Positions 8,303-25,865 of a stretch of 64,000 nucleotides of DNA are shown here, in pieces; the stretch's first letter is position 1; every line of letters starts with the position of its first letter. Made by a program: the position numbers and the translations under genes. Under the pieces are notes generated by a model. The model was not told the origin of the DNA and ran no database searches. It saw only the letters and a program-made list of their open reading frames with translations. Location: contig CAVRAG010000008.1 in assembly GCA_963718895.1 (NCBI GenBank), positions 1,184,001-1,248,000 of the forward strand. The letters run 5' to 3'. This stretch comes from an uncultured Nitrososphaerota archaeon. Its GTDB lineage: Archaea; Thermoproteota; Nitrososphaeria; Nitrososphaerales; Gagatemarchaeaceae.

Positions 8303-8446
8303 GGGGGCGTAGCCTAGCCAGGTATGGCGACAGGCTCCAGTGGTCAAACTACTATAGGTTTGATGACACGTTCGCGTGGATGATTACCCAATTGGAGCGG
8401 CGAAGAAACCTGTAGGCCGCCGGTTCAAGTCCGGCCGCCCCCACCA
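8303..8446 (+). tRNA. tRNA-Trp(CCA) with long 37/38 intron containing box C/D-like motifs
   Basis: Acceptor GGGGGCG/CGCCCCC-ACCA; anticodon arm ACAGG-CT-CCA...CCTGT; T arm GCCGG-TTCAAGT-CCGGC; intron has TGATGA, GGATGA and TTGGAGC complementary to the anticodon region, as known for archaeal tRNA-Trp introns. Confidence 0.92.
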
Positions 8447-8495: not shown

Positions 8496-9684
8496 ATGAA
8501 CTGGGAAGCTAGGGACGAGTTCGTCGAGAAGATGTTCAGGAGGTCTGGCTCGGTCTACTCCAGGCGGTACTACGGCTTCGGCGTCGACAACTTCCGGAAG
8601 TTCTGCGAGGGGGCGGGCATCGGGGAAGTCGACGGGAAGAACGTCTACTCCGTGATGGACGCCTACGTCGGCTACCTGCACGGCACGAAGGGCCTCAAGG
8701 CGAAGACCATCCACGACTACATCACCGCCGTGAGGAAGTTCCTCGGCTACGTCGACGTGGAGGTGGACCCGCTCAAGTTCAGGAACAAGGTGGTGATGCC
8801 CAAGGTCACGCAGATAGCGGACGTGCCGCTCAGGCTCGAGGACGTCCAGACCCTGCTCACGAGGGGGAGGCCCAGCCCCAAGCTCAGGGCCCTGATCCTG
8901 GTGCTGCTCTCCTCCGGGATGAGGATCGGCGAGGCGCTCAGCGTGAGGTGGGTGGACCTCGACCTGAGCTCGACCCCGGGGACGATCGGGCTGAGGGCGG
9001 AGTACACCAAGACCAGGGCGGCCCGCACCGCGTACGTGAGCGAGGAGGCGAAGCAGGCGCTGCTCGAGCTGAAGGCGAGCTCCCCGCCCACCGAGAGGGT
9101 ACGTGGACTACTCGGGGGACATGTGGCAGAAGCAGAAGGAGGCGGGCAGGACGTTCAGGCGCCTGGTGGGCAGGGTGGGGCTGGGGGAGAGGCTGGAGGG
9201 CCACAGGACGCACAGGATACACTTCCACAGCTTCAGGAAGTTCTTCCTCACCAGGGCCGTGGACACCCTCGGGGACCACGCCGGGCACGCCCTCTGCGGG
9301 CACGGGTTCTACATGGACACCTACTACAGGAAGAGCGAGGAGGAGAGGAAGGCGGAGTACCTCAGGCTCATGCCGCGGCTGACGGTCTTCTCGAAGGAAG
9401 CCGTGAGCACGGACCAGATGCTCGCCACCTTCAACAGGCAGTTCCTGAAGATCTCGAGGTACACGGACAAGGAGATAGAGGCGCTCGGGGACCTCTCACA
9501 GCTCTCGAACGAGCAGCTGCAGGACCTGATCGCGAGGAAGCAGCTGGAGAAGCTCGGGCTGAGCAACGGGAGCCGCCAGAAGGTGATCAGGCTGGACGAG
9601 TTGGAGAGGTACATCGGCGATGGCTGGGAGTTCGTCACGAACCTGAACGGCGACAAGGCGATAGTCAGGCTGCCGCCGCATTAA
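8496..9684 (+). CDS. Tyrosine recombinase/integrase of the right element; frameshift near 9100 (sequencing error or pseudogene)
   Basis: SSGMRIGEAL and TKT in the first frame; HFHSFRKFF, LCGH and MDTYY in the second frame (9103-9684). Confidence 0.88.
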
Positions 9685-9846
9685 GGACGTAGTGCGCTGG
9701 ACGTAGCCTAGCTAGGTTATGCTATGCCCTTTTTATCGCCATAGCGTATGAAACAGGGACCTTTGACCAATGGAGCAGCCTACCCTGCGTAGGCTGTCCG
9801 TGATGTCTTCCTCTACGAAGTATCTTCAATTGGCCCATATCTGAGG

Positions 9847-17390: not shown

Positions 17391-17576
17391 TCAAGGATTC
17401 GCATGGGAACCGGCTCGTCGTTTTTTGGTGCGCGGGTAGAGTTCTTTGAAGAGGTACTCCTCGGCGTCCCCGTCCACATGACCCTTCAGCTTGCCCTGCA
17501 TCAGTTCTCTGAACTTCGCGACCCTAGCTTCGAGCTCTGCCCTGGACGGCCTCTTCTCCTCCCGTTTGGGTTCCAT
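17391..17576 (-). CDS. Small hypothetical protein
   Basis: 61-aa ORF co-oriented downstream of the ArdC-like gene. Confidence 0.45.
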   Translation of the reverse strand: MEPKREEKRPSRAELEARVAKFRELMQGKLKGHVDGDAEEYLFKELYPRTKKRRAGSHANP

Positions 17577-17609
17577 GCTTCTATAGACTCTCCGATGGGG
17601 TTTTGTCCT

Positions 17610-18481
17610 GATAAGGGTTGTCGGGGTGGTCGGGGTATATCAGCTCCAGGACCTTCTTGGTGCGGTCCAGGACGCGCATGCACATCCTGCCGACCTGCTG
17701 AGGGTTGTTCGAGTTGGCGTAGCTGGAGATGTAGCGACCAGCTGAAGCCGTCTGCGGGCCTGCCGTAGAGTCTCGCCAGCGTCGCTGCCACCAGCTGCGC
17801 TATGGTCTCCGCTTCTGGCTCCTGCCCGTGGCCGCTCTTGGGCTCGAATGTCCTGTGGAGGGCGTGCCCCAGTTCGTGGAAGAAGGTGTCCCAGTCCTCT
17901 GTCGCGAGGACGATTGTCTTGTTGGTGTGGTCGGTGGCGCCGTAGATGCCCGGGGCTAGTCGCTCGTACTGGACCTTCATGCCGAACTTCTCTGCGACCT
18001 CCATGAGCGGGGGCGGGTCTCTGGGCTCGTAGATGGGGAGGTCCTTGCCGGAGGTGTCCTCGAAGCGGAAGACGGGGATGGCTTTGAATCCCACGAGGAC
18101 TTCTGCGAACCCTTCCTCCTCTGGCCCTCCGTGTCGTCTGGTGGCCTTCCTCTTGACCTTCTTCCTGACGGGCCCCAGGATGAAGAAGGCTTTGCTCCCC
18201 TTGGAGACGGAGCGGCCGACTTCGTTCCACTGCCTGAAGCCCCTGGCGTCCGTCGTTCCTGCCAGGAGCATCAGCAGTTGGTTTCCGAAGGACCACCTTG
18301 AGGAAGGCTTGACAGGGCTGTTGATGATGGCCTTCGCGCACATGTCGGGGAGCTGCTTCGACGAGAAGAGCTGGACTATCTTCTCCAGCTCCGAGTTCGC
18401 ACGCTCCCTCCAGGAGGCTTGGGACGTTGCTGGCTGACTCGTTGGTTCGGTGGCTTGCGGTGCCGTCTGGTTTGCTGACAC
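17610..18481 (-). CDS. ArdC-like ssDNA-binding/antirestriction protein with HExxH metallopeptidase domain; apparent frameshift near 17730, 3' end approximate
   Basis: WSFGNQLL, ARGFRQWNEVGRSVSKGSKAFFIL, PVFRFEDTSG, FHELGH, EAE. Confidence 0.8.
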
Positions 18482-19023: not shown

Positions 19024-22000
19024 TTAACGGGCGAACTGCCTAGCCTCCTCGTTCAGCCTCCGGCAGCAGTACTCCCTCACGGTGTATTCTCTGATGCCGA
19101 GAGTCTCGGCAGCCTCCCGCTGAGAGACGGTCTTGGGCGAGATTGCCAGGGACGCCAGATAGACCGATCCTGCTGCGACGGTCCTGGGGTTGAAGCCGTT
19201 GGGCTCCGCTGCTGAGGCTACGAGCTCCTTCGCGCGCTCGAAGAGGGTCGTGAAGTACTCCTTCGGGTCTGCTTCTGACTTCCTCAGCCGCTCGGCAATC
19301 CTCTCGCTGGATTGCAGCCTGCCGATGGCGGCCTTCACGAAGTCATCCTTGCTGGGATGGGGGAGGTGCATCCCGGACTCGAGGCCTAACTTCAGCAGGT
19401 CGGACTTGCGGACCCTGTAGCCCGCGTCGGTGTAGGCCTTCAGGACCTCCCTGTGGCTGACGTGCACGACACCTGCTGCCCTGCAGGCGTAGAGCTGAGG
19501 TAAGAGTGCGCTGCCACGCCCTTCAAATCGGGCAGGAAACACGCACCCTCCCTCCCAAACCCGGCGTGATACTTTCGCATCACCGGGCTTTCACTCCTAC
19601 GTCTTCCGTCCTCTTCTTGTGCATTAGATGGATTGATTTCAGCTACCTTTCTTGAGGCAGCTTACTGTGGCATTTCGCGCACAATGTCTGAAGATTTTCG
19701 ACTCGGTGCACGACCTGCGGGTCGAAGACCATTCCTCTGGGGACACGTTCTATGTGGTGCGCCTGTAGTTTCTCCCGACTGCTGCACTGGGTACACTTCC
19801 ATCCATCCCTCTCAAACGTCAGAAGGCGGTTGGAGAGATAGGTTTCATCATTGTACTCGGGCGCAACCGGGTGGGCGTTGGGCGCATCTATGATTGGGTC
19901 GTCGGTTTTCTCTGAAATGCTGGTTGCCGTGTGGCTCTGGTTGGTGTACGGATTCCTGATTGACCTGTATTTCCAGATGAGTTTATGGTTCATGGAGGTG
20001 TGCATGCTCGTATTGGAGGTCATCCTGAAGAGTTCAACCTTGATGTCGCCCCTCTGAATGACCACCCTTCCGTTCGTGCACACGGTTGACAGGTACTTCC
20101 CGACACTGATGTGGTACTTCCTTCGGTACCACTGCCGAAACAAGCGTTCGGCGAGGAAGTCTCCTGTCCTGAATTGTTGGTAGGCATTTACTGCTTTGTA
20201 GTAGTTGGCCCATCCCTTCAAGACCCTGTTCATCGCCGCAACCTTCGTCGGGGGGTCATCGCTTATCGCAGCTGTCCCTAACATCGCTTGCAGCTTGTTC
20301 TTGAGACGGGAAAGATTTCGCTGTGTTGGTCGTATTCTGACACAACTGTAGTATCCCATGTTCACCCGCCGGATGTGGAAACCGAGGAAGTCGAATCCAT
20401 TCTCCAGCGGAATGAGTCTTGTCTTCTCTGTTGACAGGTTCAGATTGAGTCTCTCCTTAAAGAAGCTCCGTATGCTGTTCATGACTGCGGTGGCTCCCGC
20501 TTGGGTGCCTTTCACACTCAAGATGAAGTCATCCGCATACCTGAACAGTACACAACTGGCCTGTTCCGTTTTCTGTTGTTGTACTCTCTGCGTCCTTGTG
20601 AGCTTGCCCCAGTATTCATCCCAGAACTGGTCAAACTCGTTGAGGTAGATGTTGGCTAGCAATGGCGAAAGGACACCACCTTGCGGGGTTCCTTTCCGGA
20701 CTTGTACCTGAATGCCATCTTCGATGACGGGTGCCTTAAGGAACTGACGAATCAGCCACAGGATGCTAGTGTCTGCTATCCTTTTCTTGACAGCTCGCAT
20801 TAGTATCTCATGGTCGATGTTGTCAAAGCACCCTTCGATGTCTCCTTCTATGACCCATTCGTATCTTCGGACGTTGTCCCCGTACCGATACATCGGCAAT
20901 ACACACTCCAACGTGCTTCTCTCAGGTCGGAAGCCATTCGAGTTTGGCAGGAAGTCGGCCTCGAAGATTGGTTCAAGAACCATCTTCAAGACCATCTGCA
21001 CGACCCGATCTCTTATCGTTGGGATGCCTATTGGGCGCCTCCCTCCGTTAGCCTTCGGAATGTACTTCCTAAGCACCGGAGAGGGGTGATATGTTCGCTG
21101 TTTCAGCTCTGTACGCAGTTCTTCGACAAATCTGGCCCTAGCAGACGGCTCGTGCAGGTCTGCCCCGCACACTCCGTCCACACCTGAGGTCTTCGCGCCA
21201 GCGTTGTCTAGAACCGCTTCGAGAGCCGAGTTGAGCCACTCTCTTTTCCAGAGTAGCGAATGGAGGTTGTAGAATTGCTTGCTTGGTCGTAGTGTTGCGA
21301 TTCTTGCGAGTCCACTCTGGATGCAGAGAATGGCTCTGCCTTCCCTCTTGCGGGGGACTACCGATGATTGCTCATCGGTTTTGTTGTTTGAGCCCATTCT
21401 CTCACCTCCTTTTGTGTTTCGTGGACTGAATCCATCCTTTGCACAGTTCGGACTTCGGATTTCGGACTAGAGTCCTTCCCCACAGGTCGGTAATTGGCCG
21501 ACATTCAGGGTACTATGACTCCTCGGAGCCAACCCAGTCAAATCAGACGCAGCCGTCCTATCCACTCGCCCTTTATCGACGAGAGGCAGACCGGGTTGGG
21601 TCTCACGTTCTGTAAGGAGCACGTCTGTAGACGGATTTAGGCACCCACCAGTATTCGGGAAGATTCCGCCACGCCGGGCGGTTCTCGCCTTCCTAAAGGA
21701 AGGGGATTTGCCATTCCTCTCACTGCACAGGAATGGTAACCCTCCATGTCGTGCGCCCTTCTATCCTAGTGTCTTCGCACGACCGGCCTACTATCTGTTG
21801 TGGGTTCCTTATCGTTGCCATGTCCGTCCTTAGGTCGCCGTCTCGGGAACCTAGGCTGTTCCCTTATCGGCTGTCTATGTCTGGGGCTAGCCCCATGCTG
21901 GGCTCTGCTCAGAGCCCAACATGCCAGACGACTTTCACCTTCGGGAGTCCAAACCTTACGGCTGTGGACGCCCAGCCCTACCTACTGTAGTGTGGGATGA

Positions 22001-25000
22001 TAATTCCGGAACGCTTTCAATTCGTAGTGGTAGCGATGGTTGTGGTGTGTGGCTTCCACTTGTTTGATGCAAAGGCTATTGTGACTGCAGACACAAGGAC
22101 TGCAATTCCTATGTAATTCAGTGTGTAGTTGGCTGGAGCTGTATCCTTGGTTCGAGGCAGGATTGTACTGTGTGGCTGTTACTGATGGATTGATGGCACC
22201 AAAGATGAGAAGTATGGCTCCTATGATGCCTAGTATGAGTGCCAGTCCCAAGATAGTCTGTTTGGTCATCTTGTCGTACCTGCACCTATGGGACTGTTCA
22301 TGTCTTAAGTACTTTTGTCCGAACGGAAATGTTCATAGTGGTCGGTGGTTGACCCTACAGTCCTTCGGGCATTGCTCCTTACAGCGGGCCTCGGTTACTT
22401 TTCAGTAACAGGGGCTTTCGTGACGCGCCAGCGAGTAGGCCGATATCGAGGGGATCGTGGCCTCGTAGGACTCCCTTTGGGGGAGGAGCCTCCTCGCCGT
22501 GATGTCGGCAGCCTGCGCGATGCTCTTGGGGAGGGACAGCCTCTCGGCTATCCTGTTCGTCAGCATCGAGCACGTCGGCATCGGTCCGCCTCGCCCGACG
22601 ATGTTCGGCATCAGCTTCGCCCACCCGAAGGCGGGGCCCTTCAGAGAGGAGGCGCTCTCCGTGTCCGCGACTATGTACGAGCCAAGGGGCTCGCTCTTGC
22701 TCACGGATGGCGCCGTCGACCCGTCCTCGCGCGTGTAGTCCGCCCTGCTCACGACGATCCCGCAGAAGGAGCACGTGAGCTCCGTTCGTTCCTCTCCCGC
22801 GTAGACCTGAGGTAAGAGTGCGCCGCCATGCTCAAAATATCGAGCAGGAAGCACGCACCCTCCCTCCCAAACCCGGCGTGATACTTTCGCATCACCGGGC
22901 TTTCACCCCTACGTCCTCCGTCCTCTTCTTGTGCATTGGATGGATGATTCCGATTCTCCCAGACTTGTCGCTTCTTCGGTATGGGTCGCGAATATTGTTC
23001 TTACTCCGCAAGGTTCTTATGTTACGGATGAGGTTGTTCCGAGTTGAAATGAAGTGGATTCAGCTGGCTCCGGTAGTTGGCTTCGTTTTGACGCTTGCTT
23101 CCTTGTTGTATGTGTGGAATCCCTATACTTGGGGTGTTACAGAGTTAAGCTACGGTTATCCTTTGCCGTGGCTTACCAGCTTTGCCTCTGTAGCGGGTAC
23201 ACATTGGGCAATGAATGTTGTGGGTCTTGCCGTCGACTTCTTGGTCTGGCTTGCTATATCTGCTGCAGGAATTTTCTTGTTGTCCTTGCGCAGTGCAAGA
23301 GAATTGTTGTTCCAGAGGTCAGCTTGGTCTAGGCTGTTTTAGATGGCATTTTGCGCATAGGGTCTGTAAGTTCGCAATCCTGTGCACAACTTCCGGGTCG
23401 AATATTCCTTTGGGCACTGGTTCGACATGATGCGCCTGAAGTTGCTCCCGACTGCCGCACCGAGTACACCTCCATCCATCCCTCTCAAACGCTAGTAGGC
23501 GGTTGGAGGAATAGATTTCACCGTCGTACGCAGGTGCAAGCGGTTGGATGTTGGGCGCATCTATGATTGGGTCGTCGTTTTCCTCTGGAATGCCGGTTGC
23601 CTTATGATCCTGGCTGATGTATGGATTCCTGATTGACCTGTATCGCCAGAGGAGCTCATGATTCCTTATGGTGTGCGTGCTCGTGCTGGATGCCATCCGG
23701 AAAAGTTCGGCTTTTACACCCCGCCTCTGGACGACCACTTTGCCATTACTGAGGACTTGCGCTAGGAACTTCCGGACGCTTACCTTGTACTTGCGACAGT
23801 ACCACTTGCAGAACAGGCGTTCGGCCAGAAAGTCCCCGGTTCTGAATTGCTGGTACGAATTGACTGACGTGTAGTAGTTGGCCCATCCCCTCAAGACTCT
23901 GTTCAGGGCTGCAATTTTCATGTGCGGCTCGTCGCGCGACGCGGTGGGCCCGAGCATGGATTGCAATTTGTTCCTGAGGCGGTATAGGTTCCTCTGTGTA
24001 GGTCGTATTCTGACGCACTCGCCGTAGTCTAGGTGCACCCGCTGGATGTGGAATCCAAGAAAATTGAATCCCTCTTCCAGACGGACGACCCTGGTCTTGT
24101 CTGTGGATAGGTCCAGCCTGAGCTTGCTCTTGAAGAAGCTCCTGATGCTGTCCATGACGGCGTTGACCCCCTCTTCAGTGCCTCTCGCACTTAGGATGAA
24201 GTCATCAGCGTACCTGAACAGCACACAGTTGGCCTGTCCGTGTCTCTGGCGTTTCTTTCTTTGATCTGCTGTGAGTCTGCCCCAGTTTTCATACCAGAAC
24301 TGGTCAAACTTGTTGAGGTAGATGTTGGCGAGCAGTGGTGAAAGAACACCTCCTTGTGGTGTTCCCTTGCGGGTTTTTGTCCGGATGCCTTCGTCGATGA
24401 CGGGTGCCTTGAGGAACCGACGAATCAGCCACAGGATACTGTTGTCGGCTATCCTCTTCTGGACAGCTTCCATCAGGATTCCGTGGTCGATGTTGTCGAA
24501 GCACCCTTCGATGTCTCCCTCGATGACCCATTGGTAGAGGTTGTGGCTGTTCCCGTAGCGGTACATTGGCAATACGCACTCCAGCGTGCTTCGCTCAGGT
24601 CTGAAGCCGTTGGAATTGGGCAGGAAGTCGGCCTCGAAGATTGGTTCGAGAACCATCTTCAAGACCATCTGCACCACCCTATCCCTTATCGTTGGAATGC
24701 CTATTGGCCGCTCCTTCCCGTTGGCTTTTGGAATATACTTCCTGAGCACTGGGGAGGGATGGTAGGTTCGTTGCTTCAGCTCCGTCCGCAGTTCCTCGAC
24801 GAATCTGGCCCTAGCAGACGGTTCGTGCAGGTCAGCCCCGCACACTCCGTCCACGCCTGAGGTCTTCGCGCCAGCGTTGTCTAAGACTGCTTCAAGAGCT
24901 GTTTGTAGCCACTCTCTTCTCCAGAGTAGTGAGTGTAGGTTGTGGAATTGCTTGTCTTTCCTTCTTGTTGCTGATATGGCGAGTCCACTCTGGATATGGA

Positions 25001-25865
25001 GAATGACTCTGCCTTCGTCCTTGCGGACTACTGGACTCAGCGATTGCTCACCGAGCTTATTGTTTAAGTCCATTCTCTCACCTCCTTTTTTGTGTTTCGT
25101 GGACTGAATCCATCCTTTGCACAGTTCGGACTTCGGATTTCGGGCTAGAGTCCTTCCCCGCAGGTCGGTAATTAGCCGACGTTCAGGGTACTATGACTCC
25201 TCGGAGCCAACCCGGTCAAATCGGACGCAGCTGTCCTATCCACTCGCCCTTTATCGACGAGAGGCAGACCGAATTGGGTCTCACGTTCTGCAGGGAGCAC
25301 ATCTACAGACAGGTTTAGGCACCCACCAGTGACCGAGAGAGCCCCGGCACGTCGGCTGGTTCTCGCCTTCCTGCGGAAGGGGATTTGCCACACTATGGTC
25401 TCGTAAAGTGTGGTGGTTCTCTATACCATGCGCGCCTCGTCCTATCCTAGCGTCTTCGCATGGCGCAGGGACATTCTGTTGTGGGTTCCTTATCGTTGCC
25501 TTGCCTGTCCTCAGGTCGCCGCCTCGAATGCCTAGGCTGCACTCTTTGCGGCTGTCTATGTCTGGGGCTAGCCCCATGCCGGACTCTGCTCAGAGTCCAA
25601 CACGCCAGACGACTTTCACCTTCGGGAGTCCTGACCTCACGGTCGAGGACGCCCAGCCCTACCAGCTGCTTTCGCAGCCCTTCGGGCATTGCTCCTTACA
25701 GCGGGGAAGTGGCTTATTCAGCTACTTCCTTTCGTGACGCGCGAGGCCTTCCCTGCACTCCGGGCACCTGCCCAGGATGCTGTACTCCTCGTACGCGGCC
25801 AGCTCTCGTCCGTCCACTCTTCTGAATTCCTTGAACCCCTTGCATGTTTTTCGGTCTCCTGCCAT
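19024..25865 (-). CDS. TFB/TFIIB-like transcription factor split into three exons: 25865-25743, 22806-22429, 19494-19024 (~323 aa spliced; start codon tentative)
   Basis: Joined exons give the Zn ribbon CPEC-REGL|VYAGEERTELT-CSFC, cyclin repeat 1 (IAERLSLPKSI...ISAYSL|LYACR) and repeat 2 (NPRTVAAGSVYLA...VSQREAAETLGIREYTVR); all exon lengths are multiples of 3. Confidence 0.85.
19643..21397 (-). CDS. ltrA: Group II intron-encoded RT/maturase with C-terminal HNH endonuclease
   Basis: GVDG, RPIGIPTIRDRVVQ, GFRP, GDIEGCFDNI, GTPQGGVLSPLLANIYL, RYADD, GWANYY, CxxC..HH..N..CxxCH; SD GGAGGTG. Confidence 0.95.
   Translation of the reverse strand: MGSNNKTDEQSSVVPRKREGRAILCIQSGLARIATLRPSKQFYNLHSLLWKREWLNSALEAVLDNAGAKTSGVDGVCGADLHEPSARARFVEELRTELKQRTYHPSPVLRKYIPKANGGRRPIGIPTIRDRVVQMVLKMVLEPIFEADFLPNSNGFRPERSTLECVLPMYRYGDNVRRYEWVIEGDIEGCFDNIDHEILMRAVKKRIADTSILWLIRQFLKAPVIEDGIQVQVRKGTPQGGVLSPLLANIYLNEFDQFWDEYWGKLTRTQRVQQQKTEQASCVLFRYADDFILSVKGTQAGATAVMNSIRSFFKERLNLNLSTEKTRLIPLENGFDFLGFHIRRVNMGYYSCVRIRPTQRNLSRLKNKLQAMLGTAAISDDPPTKVAAMNRVLKGWANYYKAVNAYQQFRTGDFLAERLFRQWYRRKYHISVGKYLSTVCTNGRVVIQRGDIKVELFRMTSNTSMHTSMNHKLIWKYRSIRNPYTNQSHTATSISEKTDDPIIDAPNAHPVAPEYNDETYLSNRLLTFERDGWKCTQCSSREKLQAHHIERVPRGMVFDPQVVHRVENLQTLCAKCHSKLPQER
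21982..22269 (-). CDS. Small membrane protein carried inside domain I of intron A (probably frameshifted near 22120)
   Basis: N-terminal TM ILGLALILGIIGAILLIFGAI; second TM (YIGIAVLVSAVTIAF) in an alternate frame; absent from intron B. Confidence 0.55.
   Translation of the reverse strand: MTKQTILGLALILGIIGAILLIFGAINPSVTATQYNPASNQGYSSSQLHTELHRNCSPCVCSHNSLCIKQVEATHHNHRYHYELKAFRNYHPTLQ
23049..23342 (+). CDS. Small two-TM membrane protein carried antisense inside domain IV of intron B
   Basis: 97-aa ORF: TM - YGYPLPWL - TM; region absent from intron A. Confidence 0.65.
   Translation: MKWIQLAPVVGFVLTLASLLYVWNPYTWGVTELSYGYPLPWLTSFASVAGTHWAMNVVGLAVDFLVWLAISAAGIFLLSLRSARELLFQRSAWSRLF
23319..25073 (-). 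CDS. ltrA: Group II intron-encoded RT/maturase with HNH endonuclease (sister of 19643-21397)
   Basis: Same RT motifs, YADD, domain X and HNH; same 584-aa length. Confidence 0.95.
   Translation of the reverse strand: MDLNNKLGEQSLSPVVRKDEGRVILHIQSGLAISATRRKDKQFHNLHSLLWRREWLQTALEAVLDNAGAKTSGVDGVCGADLHEPSARARFVEELRTELKQRTYHPSPVLRKYIPKANGKERPIGIPTIRDRVVQMVLKMVLEPIFEADFLPNSNGFRPERSTLECVLPMYRYGNSHNLYQWVIEGDIEGCFDNIDHGILMEAVQKRIADNSILWLIRRFLKAPVIDEGIRTKTRKGTPQGGVLSPLLANIYLNKFDQFWYENWGRLTADQRKKRQRHGQANCVLFRYADDFILSARGTEEGVNAVMDSIRSFFKSKLRLDLSTDKTRVVRLEEGFNFLGFHIQRVHLDYGECVRIRPTQRNLYRLRNKLQSMLGPTASRDEPHMKIAALNRVLRGWANYYTSVNSYQQFRTGDFLAERLFCKWYCRKYKVSVRKFLAQVLSNGKVVVQRRGVKAELFRMASSTSTHTIRNHELLWRYRSIRNPYISQDHKATGIPEENDDPIIDAPNIQPLAPAYDGEIYSSNRLLAFERDGWRCTRCGSREQLQAHHVEPVPKGIFDPEVVHRIANLQTLCAKCHLKQPRPS

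What the first reader, a model, noticed from the sequence alone, without database searches (positions are those of the whole stretch)
19495..25742. Archaeal group II introns that appear to end in AG (GC...AG boundaries, like spliceosomal introns)
Seen: both introns start GCGCG. DVI folds as GAGG-GAGGGTGCG...CGCACTCTT-A-CCTC-AG, placing the bulged A 7 nt from a terminal G. Three further checks agree. (i) J2/3 reads CGA (21525, 25203) instead of the usual RGA, so gamma=C would pair with a terminal G. (ii) The delta base 5' of EBS1 is G in A and C in B, matching first 3'-exon bases C and G. (iii) Only this junction restores both the 15-residue Zn-ribbon spacer and the SLLYACR motif. Established: group II introns normally run GUGYG...AY, are rare in archaea, and are the presumed ancestors of GU-AG spliceosomal introns. 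Inference: this may be a distinct intron lineage with a YAG 3' splice site. I cannot confirm that it is undescribed.
Basis: partly seen in the sequence, partly recalled or inferred. Interest (0 to 1): 0.9.

Follow-up and report, generated by a model that had tools for sequence, protein, structure and literature searches.

The report
Archaeal group II introns ending AG
Two mobile self-splicing introns sit in one transcription-factor-like gene of a soil archaeon and end in AG instead of the usual A-pyrimidine, because a pairing partner inside the intron changed with the last base; this is a small, derived variant and not a link to eukaryotic introns.

Summary
Two full-length group II introns lie on the minus strand (B 25742..22807, A 22428..19495), each with an intact RT-maturase-HNH protein. 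They split a TFB-like gene inside an integrated element.

Intron-less paralogs and homologs show at the DNA level that the inserted unit is exactly GCGCG...CCUCAG. The same ends hold at two further verified sites, both in an ArdC-like gene.

Ten distinct copies end in AG and eleven read CGA at J2/3. Relatives read GGA with a terminal C, or AGA with a terminal U. So the known gamma-gamma' Watson-Crick pair is kept but inverted to C-G.

The protein tree puts the AG introns in one clade (100/100), sister to introns that end in AC or AU. The terminal G is therefore derived.

One metatranscriptome contig joins the exons exactly at the intron B site. It may come from an intron-less homolog, so splicing in vivo is not shown.

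The resemblance to spliceosomal GC-AG introns looks superficial. Verdict: a real new variant of a known kind, of moderate interest. My literature searches found no description of it, but they were limited.

The parts
25743..25865 (-). Exon 1 of the TFB-like host gene (MAGDRK...CPECREGL)
   Evidence: The ORF frame. It is contiguous with exon 2 in intron-less homologs.
22807..25742 (-). Intron B, 2936 nt, GCGCG...CCUCAG
   Evidence: One RNA contig skips exactly this 2936-nt stretch, with 1 nt of slack.
22429..22806 (-). Exon 2 (126 codons, VYAGEE...SISAYSL)
19495..22428 (-). Intron A, 2934 nt, GCGCG...CCUCAG
19024..19494 (-). Exon 3 (LYACR... to the stop codon). It has a weak TFIIB match.
   Evidence: NCBIfam PRK00423 at E 4.7e-4, far below the cut-off. 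Homolog alignment.
23319..25073 (-). IEP of intron B, 584 aa: RT, maturase and HNH endonuclease
   Evidence: Pfam RVT_1 2.8e-39, GIIM 1.1e-9, HNH 2e-7. TIGR04416 scores 351.6 bits against a cut-off of 300.
19643..21397 (-). IEP of intron A, 584 aa, 75% identical to the IEP of B
25201..25203 (-). J2/3 of intron B, CGA. The C at 25203 is gamma.
21523..21525 (-). J2/3 of intron A, CGA. The C at 21525 is gamma.
25397..25403 (-). Intron B delta (C at 25403) plus EBS1 GAGACC. EBS1 pairs with IBS1 GGCCUC with one A.C mismatch.
25465..25471 (-). Intron B EBS2 UCCCUGC, a perfect 7-bp complement of exon GCAGGGA
21719..21726 (-). Intron A delta (G at 21726) plus EBS1 CAGUGAG. EBS1 pairs with CUCGCUG with one G.U pair.
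21784..21791 (-). Intron A EBS2 GUAGGCCG, a perfect 8-bp complement of exon CGGCCUAC
22869..22902 (-). Domain V of intron B (AGC triad, GAAA loop, 2-nt bulge)
22807..22866 (-). Domain VI of intron B. The branch A is at 22813 and the terminal AG is at 22808-22807.
19557..19590 (-). Domain V of intron A
19495..19554 (-). Domain VI of intron A. The branch A is at 19501 and the terminal AG is at 19496-19495.
21990..22350 (-). An insertion of about 375 nt in a domain I hairpin of intron A. It is absent from B, L104 and L105, and holds a 95-aa ORF (21982-22269).
22950..23318 (-). An insertion of about 364 nt between the IEP stop and domain V of intron B. This gap is 438 nt in B against 74-75 nt in 5 of the 7 copies measured.

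Best explanation
These are two copies of a mobile group II intron in full retroelement form (ribozyme plus RT-maturase-HNH protein). They belong to a small lineage confined, in what I searched, to Gagatemarchaeaceae-like Nitrososphaerota and to peat and soil metagenomes. The copies colonise genes of integrated elements, namely TFB-like and ArdC-like genes.

Inferred mechanism:
- The 5' splice site is set by EBS1/EBS2 pairing with the last 13-14 exon bases.
- The bulged A of domain VI attacks that site.
- The 3' splice site is set by the ordinary gamma-gamma' Watson-Crick pair, here inverted to C (J2/3) with G (last intron base).
- The site is also set by a base next to EBS1 that pairs with the first 3'-exon base.
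- Exon ligation restores the Zn-ribbon and the cyclin-fold motif of the host protein.
- The lariat RNP then reverse-splices into new DNA sites.

Shown here: the exact inserted unit, the pairings, intact ORFs, and copies at many sites. Inferred: catalysis, splicing in vivo and current mobility.
For: **Empty sites.** Four insertion sites are checked against uninterrupted homologs. TFB site B and TFB site A are checked at the DNA level. The ArdC-like MRVL|DRTKK site (L199) is also checked at the DNA level. The ArdC-like HRSFE|P(K/R)(S/T)GHGQ site (L105, L198) is colinear at the protein level only.

**Conserved ends.** Ten of 10 distinct copies with a 3' end finish in AG, nine as CAG and one as UAG. 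Eleven of 11 distinct copies with J2/3 read CGA.

**Covariation between lineages.** I screened 41 introns with a J2/3 pattern:
- 24 read GGA with a terminal C.
- 8 read CGA with a terminal G; all are AG-clade copies.
- 1 read TGA with a terminal C; its stem score was weak (0.71) and it is probably a false site.
- 8 gave no pattern.

The Leptolyngbya plasmid intron reads AGA with a terminal U.

**Exon pairing.** EBS2-IBS2 is a perfect 7-8 bp in B, A, L199 and L194. EBS1-IBS1 is 6-7 bp in A, L105, L190 and B.

**Signs of recent activity.** Two identical 3314-nt copies lie at two sites of one complete genome. Both window IEPs are intact.

**Core structure.** Domains V and VI fold as expected.

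**RNA.** One RNA contig joins 22805/6 to 25742/3.
Against: **No direct proof of splicing.** The joined RNA contig is only about 95% like the window, with 13 differences in 259 letters. Its variants fit none of 7 known homologs. It may therefore be the transcript of an intron-less homolog. Only one DNA run was laid, and it had no cover at that place.

**One origin only.** All AG copies are related, so the gamma-gamma' switch is a single evolutionary event and not repeated covariation.

**Unverified ends in relatives.** The terminal bases of relatives come from model ends that are not checked by exon junctions. Some are off by 1 nt.

**Imperfect pairings.** EBS1 of B has an A.C mismatch. EBS2 of L105 does not fit its exon. 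EBS1 of the identical pair L199/L188 fits neither of their exons.

**Decay and unknown class.** One copy (L192) has a decayed IEP. The RNA class is not assigned.
Confidence: 0.85

Rival explanations
1. The real 3' splice site is a canonical AY nearby: ...UCUAC 6 nt downstream, or ...CGAU inside domain VI. On this view the AG only looks terminal.
For: Both window 3' exons begin NUCUAC. This resembles the ...ACUCUAC ends of L191 and the bacterial relatives.
Against: Intron-less homologs keep these six bases as codons (V-Y and L-Y), and the flanks abut exactly at CAG|.

Eight other copies have unrelated bases after the AG: CCAAGG, GACAGG, GGCUGA, AGCCCA, CACCAA, CGCCGG, CUUGCA and CUCAUG.

A site 6 nt downstream would put the branch A 13 nt from the end. 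It would also delete two conserved residues.
Confidence: 0.02
2. The copies are dead relics. The terminal G is a disabling mutation, and the host gene copies are pseudogenes split by unspliceable inserts.
For: Splicing is not shown. One copy (L192) has an IEP with stop codons. EBS1 of L199/L188 fits neither target. The gene family has intron-less paralogs that could supply the function.
Against: The G is matched by a compensating C at gamma in 11 of 11 copies. The ends are conserved across 10 copies whose IEPs are only 70-95% identical. The IEP ORFs are intact in 9 of the copies used for the tree. Identical copies lie at two sites in one genome. The EBS loops differ between copies and match their own exons. 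This is the signature of retargeted, active mobility.
Confidence: 0.08
3. The AG end reflects a spliceosome-like mode of 3' splice-site recognition, or an ancestral state that links group II and nuclear introns.
For: The boundaries read GC...AG, as in a minor class of U2-type introns (this comparison is recalled and comes from no call). The host is an archaeon.
Against: The AG clade is nested beside AY-ending introns. The change is fully explained by the group II specific gamma-gamma' pair. [quoted passage not shown] The host is not a close relative of eukaryotes, since its lineage is Nitrososphaerota.
Confidence: 0.03

Closest known systems
Bacterial En-containing group II introns of the chloroplast-like (IIB) kind, for example the T.el4h-type intron whose maturase-RT is solved (PDB 6ME0), and the Leptolyngbya boryana plasmid intron (AP018204.1, L207)
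   Same: They share the RT-X-D-En protein. 6ME0 is the best solved match at 195 bits, and L207 is the best plasmid match at 39.9% identity over 95% of the query.

They share the 5' motif G(U/C)GCG-YYACGAA, the DIII motif NGA-stem-AUAGUA, and the geometry of DV and DVI.

The clade (AG + L191 + L207) has 100/99 support.
   Different: The terminal base is G, not U or C. Gamma is C, not A or G. Position 2 is C. A hairpin is inserted after the GAAAG near the 5' end.

The rest of domain I did not align with the two other groups of IEP relatives. I did not test alignment of domain I with L207 or L191.

T. elongatus introns use EBS3 (PMC2882425, passages). Here the base next to EBS1 tracks the 3' exon.
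Ll.LtrB of Lactococcus lactis (IIA, ML class)
   Same: The protein has an En domain; LtrA scores 187.5 bits. A base adjacent to EBS1 pairs with the first 3'-exon base. This is the delta-delta' mode that the review assigns to IIA introns (PMC4424553, passages).
   Different: The IEP is no closer to LtrA than to the CL-type protein. I made no RNA alignment with Ll.LtrB, because its sequence was not fetched. The ends are AG, not AY.
Class B introns with a 3' extension (B.c.I4 type)
   Same: They are a natural departure from the canonical 3' splice site at the end of domain VI (PMC4424553, passages; PMC1865049 and PMC2691827, abstracts only).
   Different: Those introns splice about 50-70 nt downstream through an extra domain. 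Here the splice site stays in the canonical place, 6 nt after the branch A, and only the identity of the last base changes.
U2-type GC-AG spliceosomal introns
   Same: Only the letters at the two ends.
   Different: The spliceosome has no gamma-gamma' pair (PMC4424553, passages). The AG here is derived within an AY-ending family. This intron carries its own ribozyme and its own RT.

Membership tests
Group II intron (retroelement form) | Domain V with an AGC triad, a 2-nt bulge and a GNRA loop | tested here: met
   RF00029 scores 57.3 and 57.0 bits against a gathering score of 40. Fold.
Group II intron (retroelement form) | Domain VI with a bulged branch A 7-8 nt from the 3' end | tested here: met
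   A single bulged A at 22813 and 19501, the 7th base from the end.
Group II intron (retroelement form) | An intron-encoded RT with a maturase (X) domain in domain IV | tested here: met
   RVT_1, GIIM and HNH. TIGR04416 scores 350.7 and 351.6 bits against a cut-off of 300.
Group II intron (retroelement form) | 5' boundary GUGYG | tested here: not met
   GCGCG in every AG-lineage copy that has a 5' end. Relative L191 also reads GCGCG.
Group II intron (retroelement form) | 3' boundary AY | tested here: not met
   AG in 10 of 10 distinct copies. The ends are fixed by empty sites at four insertion sites: three at the DNA level and one at the protein level only.
Group II intron (retroelement form) | A gamma-gamma' Watson-Crick pair between J2/3 and the last intron base | tested here: met
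   C-G here, G-C in 24 relatives and A-U in L207. This is a single switch event.
Group II intron (retroelement form) | EBS1/EBS2 pairing with the 5' exon | tested here: met
   Perfect 7-8 bp EBS2 in 4 copies and 6-7 bp EBS1 in 4 copies. L105 (EBS2) and L199/L188 (EBS1) are exceptions.
Group II intron (retroelement form) | Precise splicing in vivo or in vitro, with a lariat | tested here: inconclusive
   One metatranscriptome contig joins the exons at the predicted place, but it may come from an intron-less homolog.
IIA RNA class | Delta, next to EBS1, pairs with the first 3'-exon base | tested here: inconclusive
   The base is complementary in 5 of 5 copies, with three pair types. A second column, inside a hairpin stem, shows the same pattern. 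Only 6 columns have this grouping.
IIB / chloroplast-like class | The IEP groups with CL-type proteins, and EBS3 lies in a coordination loop | tested here: inconclusive
   The nearest solved and plasmid IEPs are cyanobacterial. No labelled class references were in the tree. EBS3 was not identified.
Rfam group-II-D1D4-1 to -7 | A match of domains I-IV to one of the seven models | tested here: not met
   No match in the window at gathering score. No match in L190, L199 or L191 at E up to 0.01, while other introns in the same call did match. The two other relative groups also lacked matches, so this test is weak.

The most novel reading that the evidence does not exclude
This would be the first catalogued natural group II intron lineage whose 3' splice site is YAG. 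The site is specified by a pyrimidine at gamma, so the gamma-gamma' pair is inverted.

The lineage would belong to an undescribed RNA subclass. It has a CL-related En+ protein, IIA-style 3'-exon pairing and a GCGCG 5' end, and it matches no Rfam D1-D4 model. It specialises on genes of integrated elements in Gagatemarchaeaceae-like Nitrososphaerota.

It would also show in nature that a single compensated change turns AY into the AG of nuclear introns.
Probability: 0.45. Interest if true: 0.6.

Novelty: new variant of a known kind. Interest (0 to 1): 0.5.

Why it matters
**The AY rule.** The 5'GUGYG...AY3' rule is used to define group II intron boundaries, both by eye and in pipelines (PMC4028801 and PMC4424553, passages). 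A lineage that breaks both ends while keeping every underlying pairing is a natural test of the gamma-gamma' rule. It is also the kind of intron that such boundary profiles could miss.

**Host range.** The lineage adds an endonuclease-bearing intron family to Nitrososphaerota. Surveys of complete archaeal genomes found group II introns mainly in Halobacterota and Thermoplasmatota (PMC8919778, passages).

**Unusual setting.** Here two introns interrupt one protein-coding gene in an archaeon.

**Intron origins.** For debates on the origin of nuclear introns, it shows only that a terminal G is easily reached. It does not show that this lineage is ancestral.

Tried and rejected
**Aligning domains I-IV with the nearest IEP relatives.** I tried the bacterial group at 35-41% identity and the soil metagenome group at about 35%. 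Neither aligned outside DIII. I therefore compared J2/3 through a pattern (NGA + 5-7 nt + RUAGUA). That pattern missed 8 of 41 introns and gave one doubtful site.

**Covariance model of DV-DVI.** I built model R1 and ran it over 100 further loci. It gave 108 matches, of which 102 covered the whole model and 83 were distinct.
- The model-end dinucleotides were AC 49, CC 13, CG 5, TA 4, GT 3, CA 3, AT 2, AA 2, CT 1 and GC 1. None was AG.
- Inspection showed that several ends are 1 nt short. I therefore use these counts only to say that no AG end was seen.
- None of the 9 matches that ended in A was followed by G.

**RNA evidence.** The three RNA runs hold only 5-7% of the sampled words.
- The single joined contig is discussed above and is inconclusive.
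- A second joint, 21468 to 25125 with 17 letters between, links homologous parts of the two introns. I take it to be a relative or an assembly join.
- Uncovered parts of the stretch are not evidence.

**Searches that found nothing useful.**
- Viral contigs: the IEP found only two HNH-level matches. A 23-nt invariant motif found none.
- An uninterrupted copy of the transposase that hosts L191 was not found in 3 genomes. L191's ends therefore rest on reading frame and on a perfect 7-bp EBS1 candidate.
- A search for EBS1 in L207 gave no clear site.
- G010's IEP fragment near its TFB-like gene belongs to an L191-like intron. That gene is uninterrupted at site A.

**Literature.** The searches found no description of AG-ending group II introns. 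One paper reports degenerate organellar introns without AY ends (PMC9240083, passages). Supplementary files, including the class-consensus boundary figure of PMC4028801, could not be read. The bacterial group II intron database was not available.

Full report
**What is there**

On the minus strand of the window a TFB-like gene is split into three exons: 25865..25743, 22806..22429 and 19494..19024. Two group II introns of almost equal length split it: B (25742..22807, 2936 nt) and A (22428..19495, 2934 nt).

Rfam's group II domain V-VI model matches the 3' end of each at 57 bits, against a gathering score of 40. These two are the only matches in the 3.1-Mb assembly.

Each intron encodes an intact 584-aa protein with RT, maturase and HNH domains. 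Pfam gives RVT_1, GIIM and HNH. NCBIfam TIGR04416 scores 351 bits against a cut-off of 300. The two proteins are 75% identical.

The last 98 nt fold into a canonical domain V and into a domain VI with one bulged A. Four base pairs and an unpaired AG follow that A. The z-scores are -6.4 and -7.5.

**The setting**

A tRNA gene with an intron (8303-8443) is followed by a tyrosine-recombinase gene (8496-9692, Phage_integrase). An ArdC-like gene (17501-18481) lies downstream. The introns therefore sit in what looks like an integrated element.

The closest named records are MAGs titled Candidatus Gagatemarchaeum stordalenia (L003) and an uncultured Nitrosopumilales archaeon (L004). Both belong to Nitrososphaerota.

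**Are the ends really GCGCG...CAG?**

Yes, as far as DNA can show. Searching exon 2 against 61 related genomes found matches in 25. One is a 98%-identical uninterrupted paralog about 17 kb outside the window in the same genome. Others are uninterrupted homologs in other genomes.

Their proteins read CPECREGL-VYAGEERTELTC and SISAYSL-LYACR without a break. At the DNA level the exon flanks of intron B abut exactly in L098 and L084 (GGCCTC|GTCTAC). Those of intron A abut exactly in L087 (CTCCCTG|CTCCAC).

Each site alone allows a 1-nt slide. At B, the intron's first base and the exon's first base are both G. At A, the exon's last base and the intron's last base are both G. The slides go opposite ways, so the only solution common to both is GCGCG...CAG.

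Two more sites confirm it:
- L105 and L198 lie in an ArdC-like gene at HRSFE|P(K/R)(S/T)GHGQ. This is colinear at the protein level with the window's own uninterrupted copy and with L107.
- L199 lies at MRVL|DRTKK. This is colinear at the DNA level with the uninterrupted stretch of L105.

The UCUAC that follows both window introns is coding sequence kept in the empty sites. Eight other copies have unrelated bases after the AG.

**How large is the lineage?**

- Genome collection: only 2 of the 80 best loci exceeded 41% identity to the IEP.
- Metagenome collection: only 4 of the 80 best loci exceeded 40%.
- Class level: 3 of 401 genomes had any match at E up to 1e-20.
- Family level: 13 of 97 genomes had an IEP match at E up to 1e-10. 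Nine of these carry AG-lineage copies or fragments at 70% identity or more.

Counting identical or duplicate records once, 10 copies have a 3' end and all 10 end in AG (nine CAG, one UAG). Eleven copies have J2/3 and all 11 read CGA. One complete genome has two identical 3314-nt copies at different sites.

**Why AG?**

The review of the field states that gamma-gamma' is a Watson-Crick pair between a J2/3 base and the last intron base. It also states that the vast majority of introns run GUGYG...AY (PMC4424553, passages).

In these introns DII closes with ...GGCUC and DIII opens with GGAGUC-AUAGUA. The three bases between them are CGA.

I screened 41 introns with a J2/3 pattern anchored on the DIII motif:
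- 24 relatives read GGA and end in C.
- 8 AG-clade copies read CGA and end in G.
- 1 gave a doubtful TGA/C site.
- 8 gave no pattern.

The Leptolyngbya plasmid intron is the best plasmid match of the IEP. It reads AGA and ends in U. Its junction restores the GTPQGG-x-ISPLLAN motif of the RT gene it interrupts.

So three pair types occur in this wider family: A-U, G-C and C-G. The AG end is the ordinary rule with the pair turned round. This is one evolutionary event and not repeated covariation. The terminal bases of most relatives rest on model ends that are not checked against exons.

A covariance model run over 100 more loci gave 83 distinct full matches with no AG end. Its ends can be 1 nt off.

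**Exon recognition**

The EBS loops differ between copies and fit their own exons.
- EBS2 is a perfect 7-8 bp complement in B, A, L199 and L194.
- EBS1 gives 6-7 pairs in A, L105, L190 and B. B has one A.C mismatch.
- EBS2 of L105 does not fit. EBS1 of L199/L188 does not fit.

The base 5' of EBS1 is complementary to the first 3'-exon base in all five copies tested, as G-C, G-C, C-G, U-A and C-G. This is the mode that the review gives for IIA introns.

Only 6 of 639 ungapped columns show the same grouping of letters. A second of these, inside a 5-bp hairpin stem (25344-25359 in B), shows the same complementarity. I cannot exclude another arrangement, and I leave the RNA class open.

**Relationships**

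The nearest solved proteins are a cyanobacterial CL-type maturase (6ME0, 195 bits) and LtrA (187.5 bits).

I collected 36 IEPs and used the 29 with an ORF of at least 400 aa that contains the YADD motif. Seven were dropped: L108, L109, L181, L195, L196, L120 and L101.

In that tree the nine AG-lineage proteins form one clade (100/100) on a long stem of 0.92. Their sister is L191 plus the Leptolyngbya intron, and the joint clade has 100/99 support. The root is at the midpoint only, and three rows are long-branched.

L191 comes from a genome of the same family. It starts GCGCG, reads GGA at J2/3 and ends UAC. A perfect 7-bp EBS1 candidate supports its 5' end. So the C at position 2 and the terminal G are separate changes. 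The terminal G is most simply derived on the stem of the AG clade.

None of Rfam's seven D1-D4 models matches these introns. The two other relative groups lack matches too, so this says little.

**Is it spliced?**

Three peat metatranscriptome runs hold small parts of the stretch. In one of them a 268-nt contig (depth 28) joins 22805 to 25742, skipping 2936 nt with 1 nt of slack. That is exactly intron B.

The contig differs from the window at 13 of 259 laid letters, and its variants fit none of 7 homologs compared. Intron-less homologs are common in this genus, so it may be their transcript.

The same run also holds a contig across the 5' junction of intron B, which is either unspliced RNA or DNA. 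Splicing in vivo is therefore consistent with the data but not shown.

**Comparison and verdict**

The elements meet the structural definition of group II introns except for the two short boundary consensus sequences. Those departures are explained by pairings that are kept.

They work like ordinary En-containing mobile introns. They are not members of any class I could assign.

The likeness to nuclear GC-AG introns is in the letters only. The review notes that no gamma-gamma' equivalent has been reported in the spliceosome. The AG here is also a late change in a small clade.

Text searches found no earlier description. A 2024 preprint reports IEPs in TACK archaea without RNA boundaries (10.1101/2024.12.10.627823, abstract and section 7). 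A 2022 survey found archaeal introns of types C, D, CL1A and CL1B, mainly in Halobacterota and Thermoplasmatota (PMC8919778, passages).

I rate this a new variant of a known kind, of moderate interest.

Noticed in passing
window 8303-8443 and 8496-9692: A tRNA gene with a 71-nt intron (Rfam tRNA, 53.4 bits) is followed directly by a tyrosine-recombinase gene (Phage_integrase, E 1.5e-7). This is probably one border of the integrated element that carries the ArdC-like and TFB-like genes.
   Followed up: partly
window 17501-18481 (minus strand): After ...FSW the ArdC-like ORF reads in a different frame from its homologs. L105 continues NYIAAYAASNNPRQVGRMCMRVLDRTKKVLDLIYP, while the window continues SLHLQLRQLEQPSAGRQDVH, which matches frame 2 of L105. 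This suggests a frameshift or a sequencing error.
   Followed up: partly
window 21990-22350 and 22950-23318; L199, L192, L190, L105: Copies of the roughly 2570-nt basic intron (L104) carry unrelated inserts of about 280-740 nt in peripheral loops (a domain I hairpin, the DII region, and DIV after the IEP). The insert in intron A holds a 95-aa ORF with a hydrophobic start. The insert in intron B overlaps a 174-aa ORF on the opposite strand (22818-23342). No similarity between the inserts was found.
   Followed up: partly
L104 / L003 (whole locus): This copy has the TFB site-B 5' exon, but its 3' flank is the C-terminal part of an ArdC-like gene (AGYAQSNDPPKVGRLCMRVLDRTKK). Its delta base (C) does not pair with the following C. 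It looks like recombination between two intron copies that deleted the DNA between them.
   Followed up: partly
L188 and L199 (one complete genome, two sites): These are two identical 3314-nt copies. EBS2 fits the L199 exon perfectly (7 bp), but the EBS1 loop fits neither exon.
   Followed up: no
window 25344-25359 (B) and 21666-21681 (A): This is a 5-bp hairpin whose fourth base pair changes by compensation between copies (G-C, C-G, A-U, U-A). In five copies its 3' base is complementary to the first 3'-exon base, as the delta base is. Whether this is chance, or a sign of an EBS3-like contact, is unexplained.
   Followed up: partly
L121, L123, L125, L127, L128, L113, L130; L057, L023, L018, L049: Some soil-metagenome and bacterial relatives have model-predicted 3' ends of CC or (with a 1-nt shift) GC instead of AY. 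None is verified by exon junctions.
   Followed up: no
L110, L113, L122, L161, L162, L172, L179, L182: Several metagenome contigs hold two or three domain V-VI matches. These are nested or tandem group II introns. L207 is an intron inside the RT gene of another intron.
   Followed up: no
L193 / L088 (G010:C3): An L191-like intron fragment lies about 1.7 kb from an uninterrupted TFB-like gene. A second intron lineage therefore lives in the same kind of element.
   Followed up: partly
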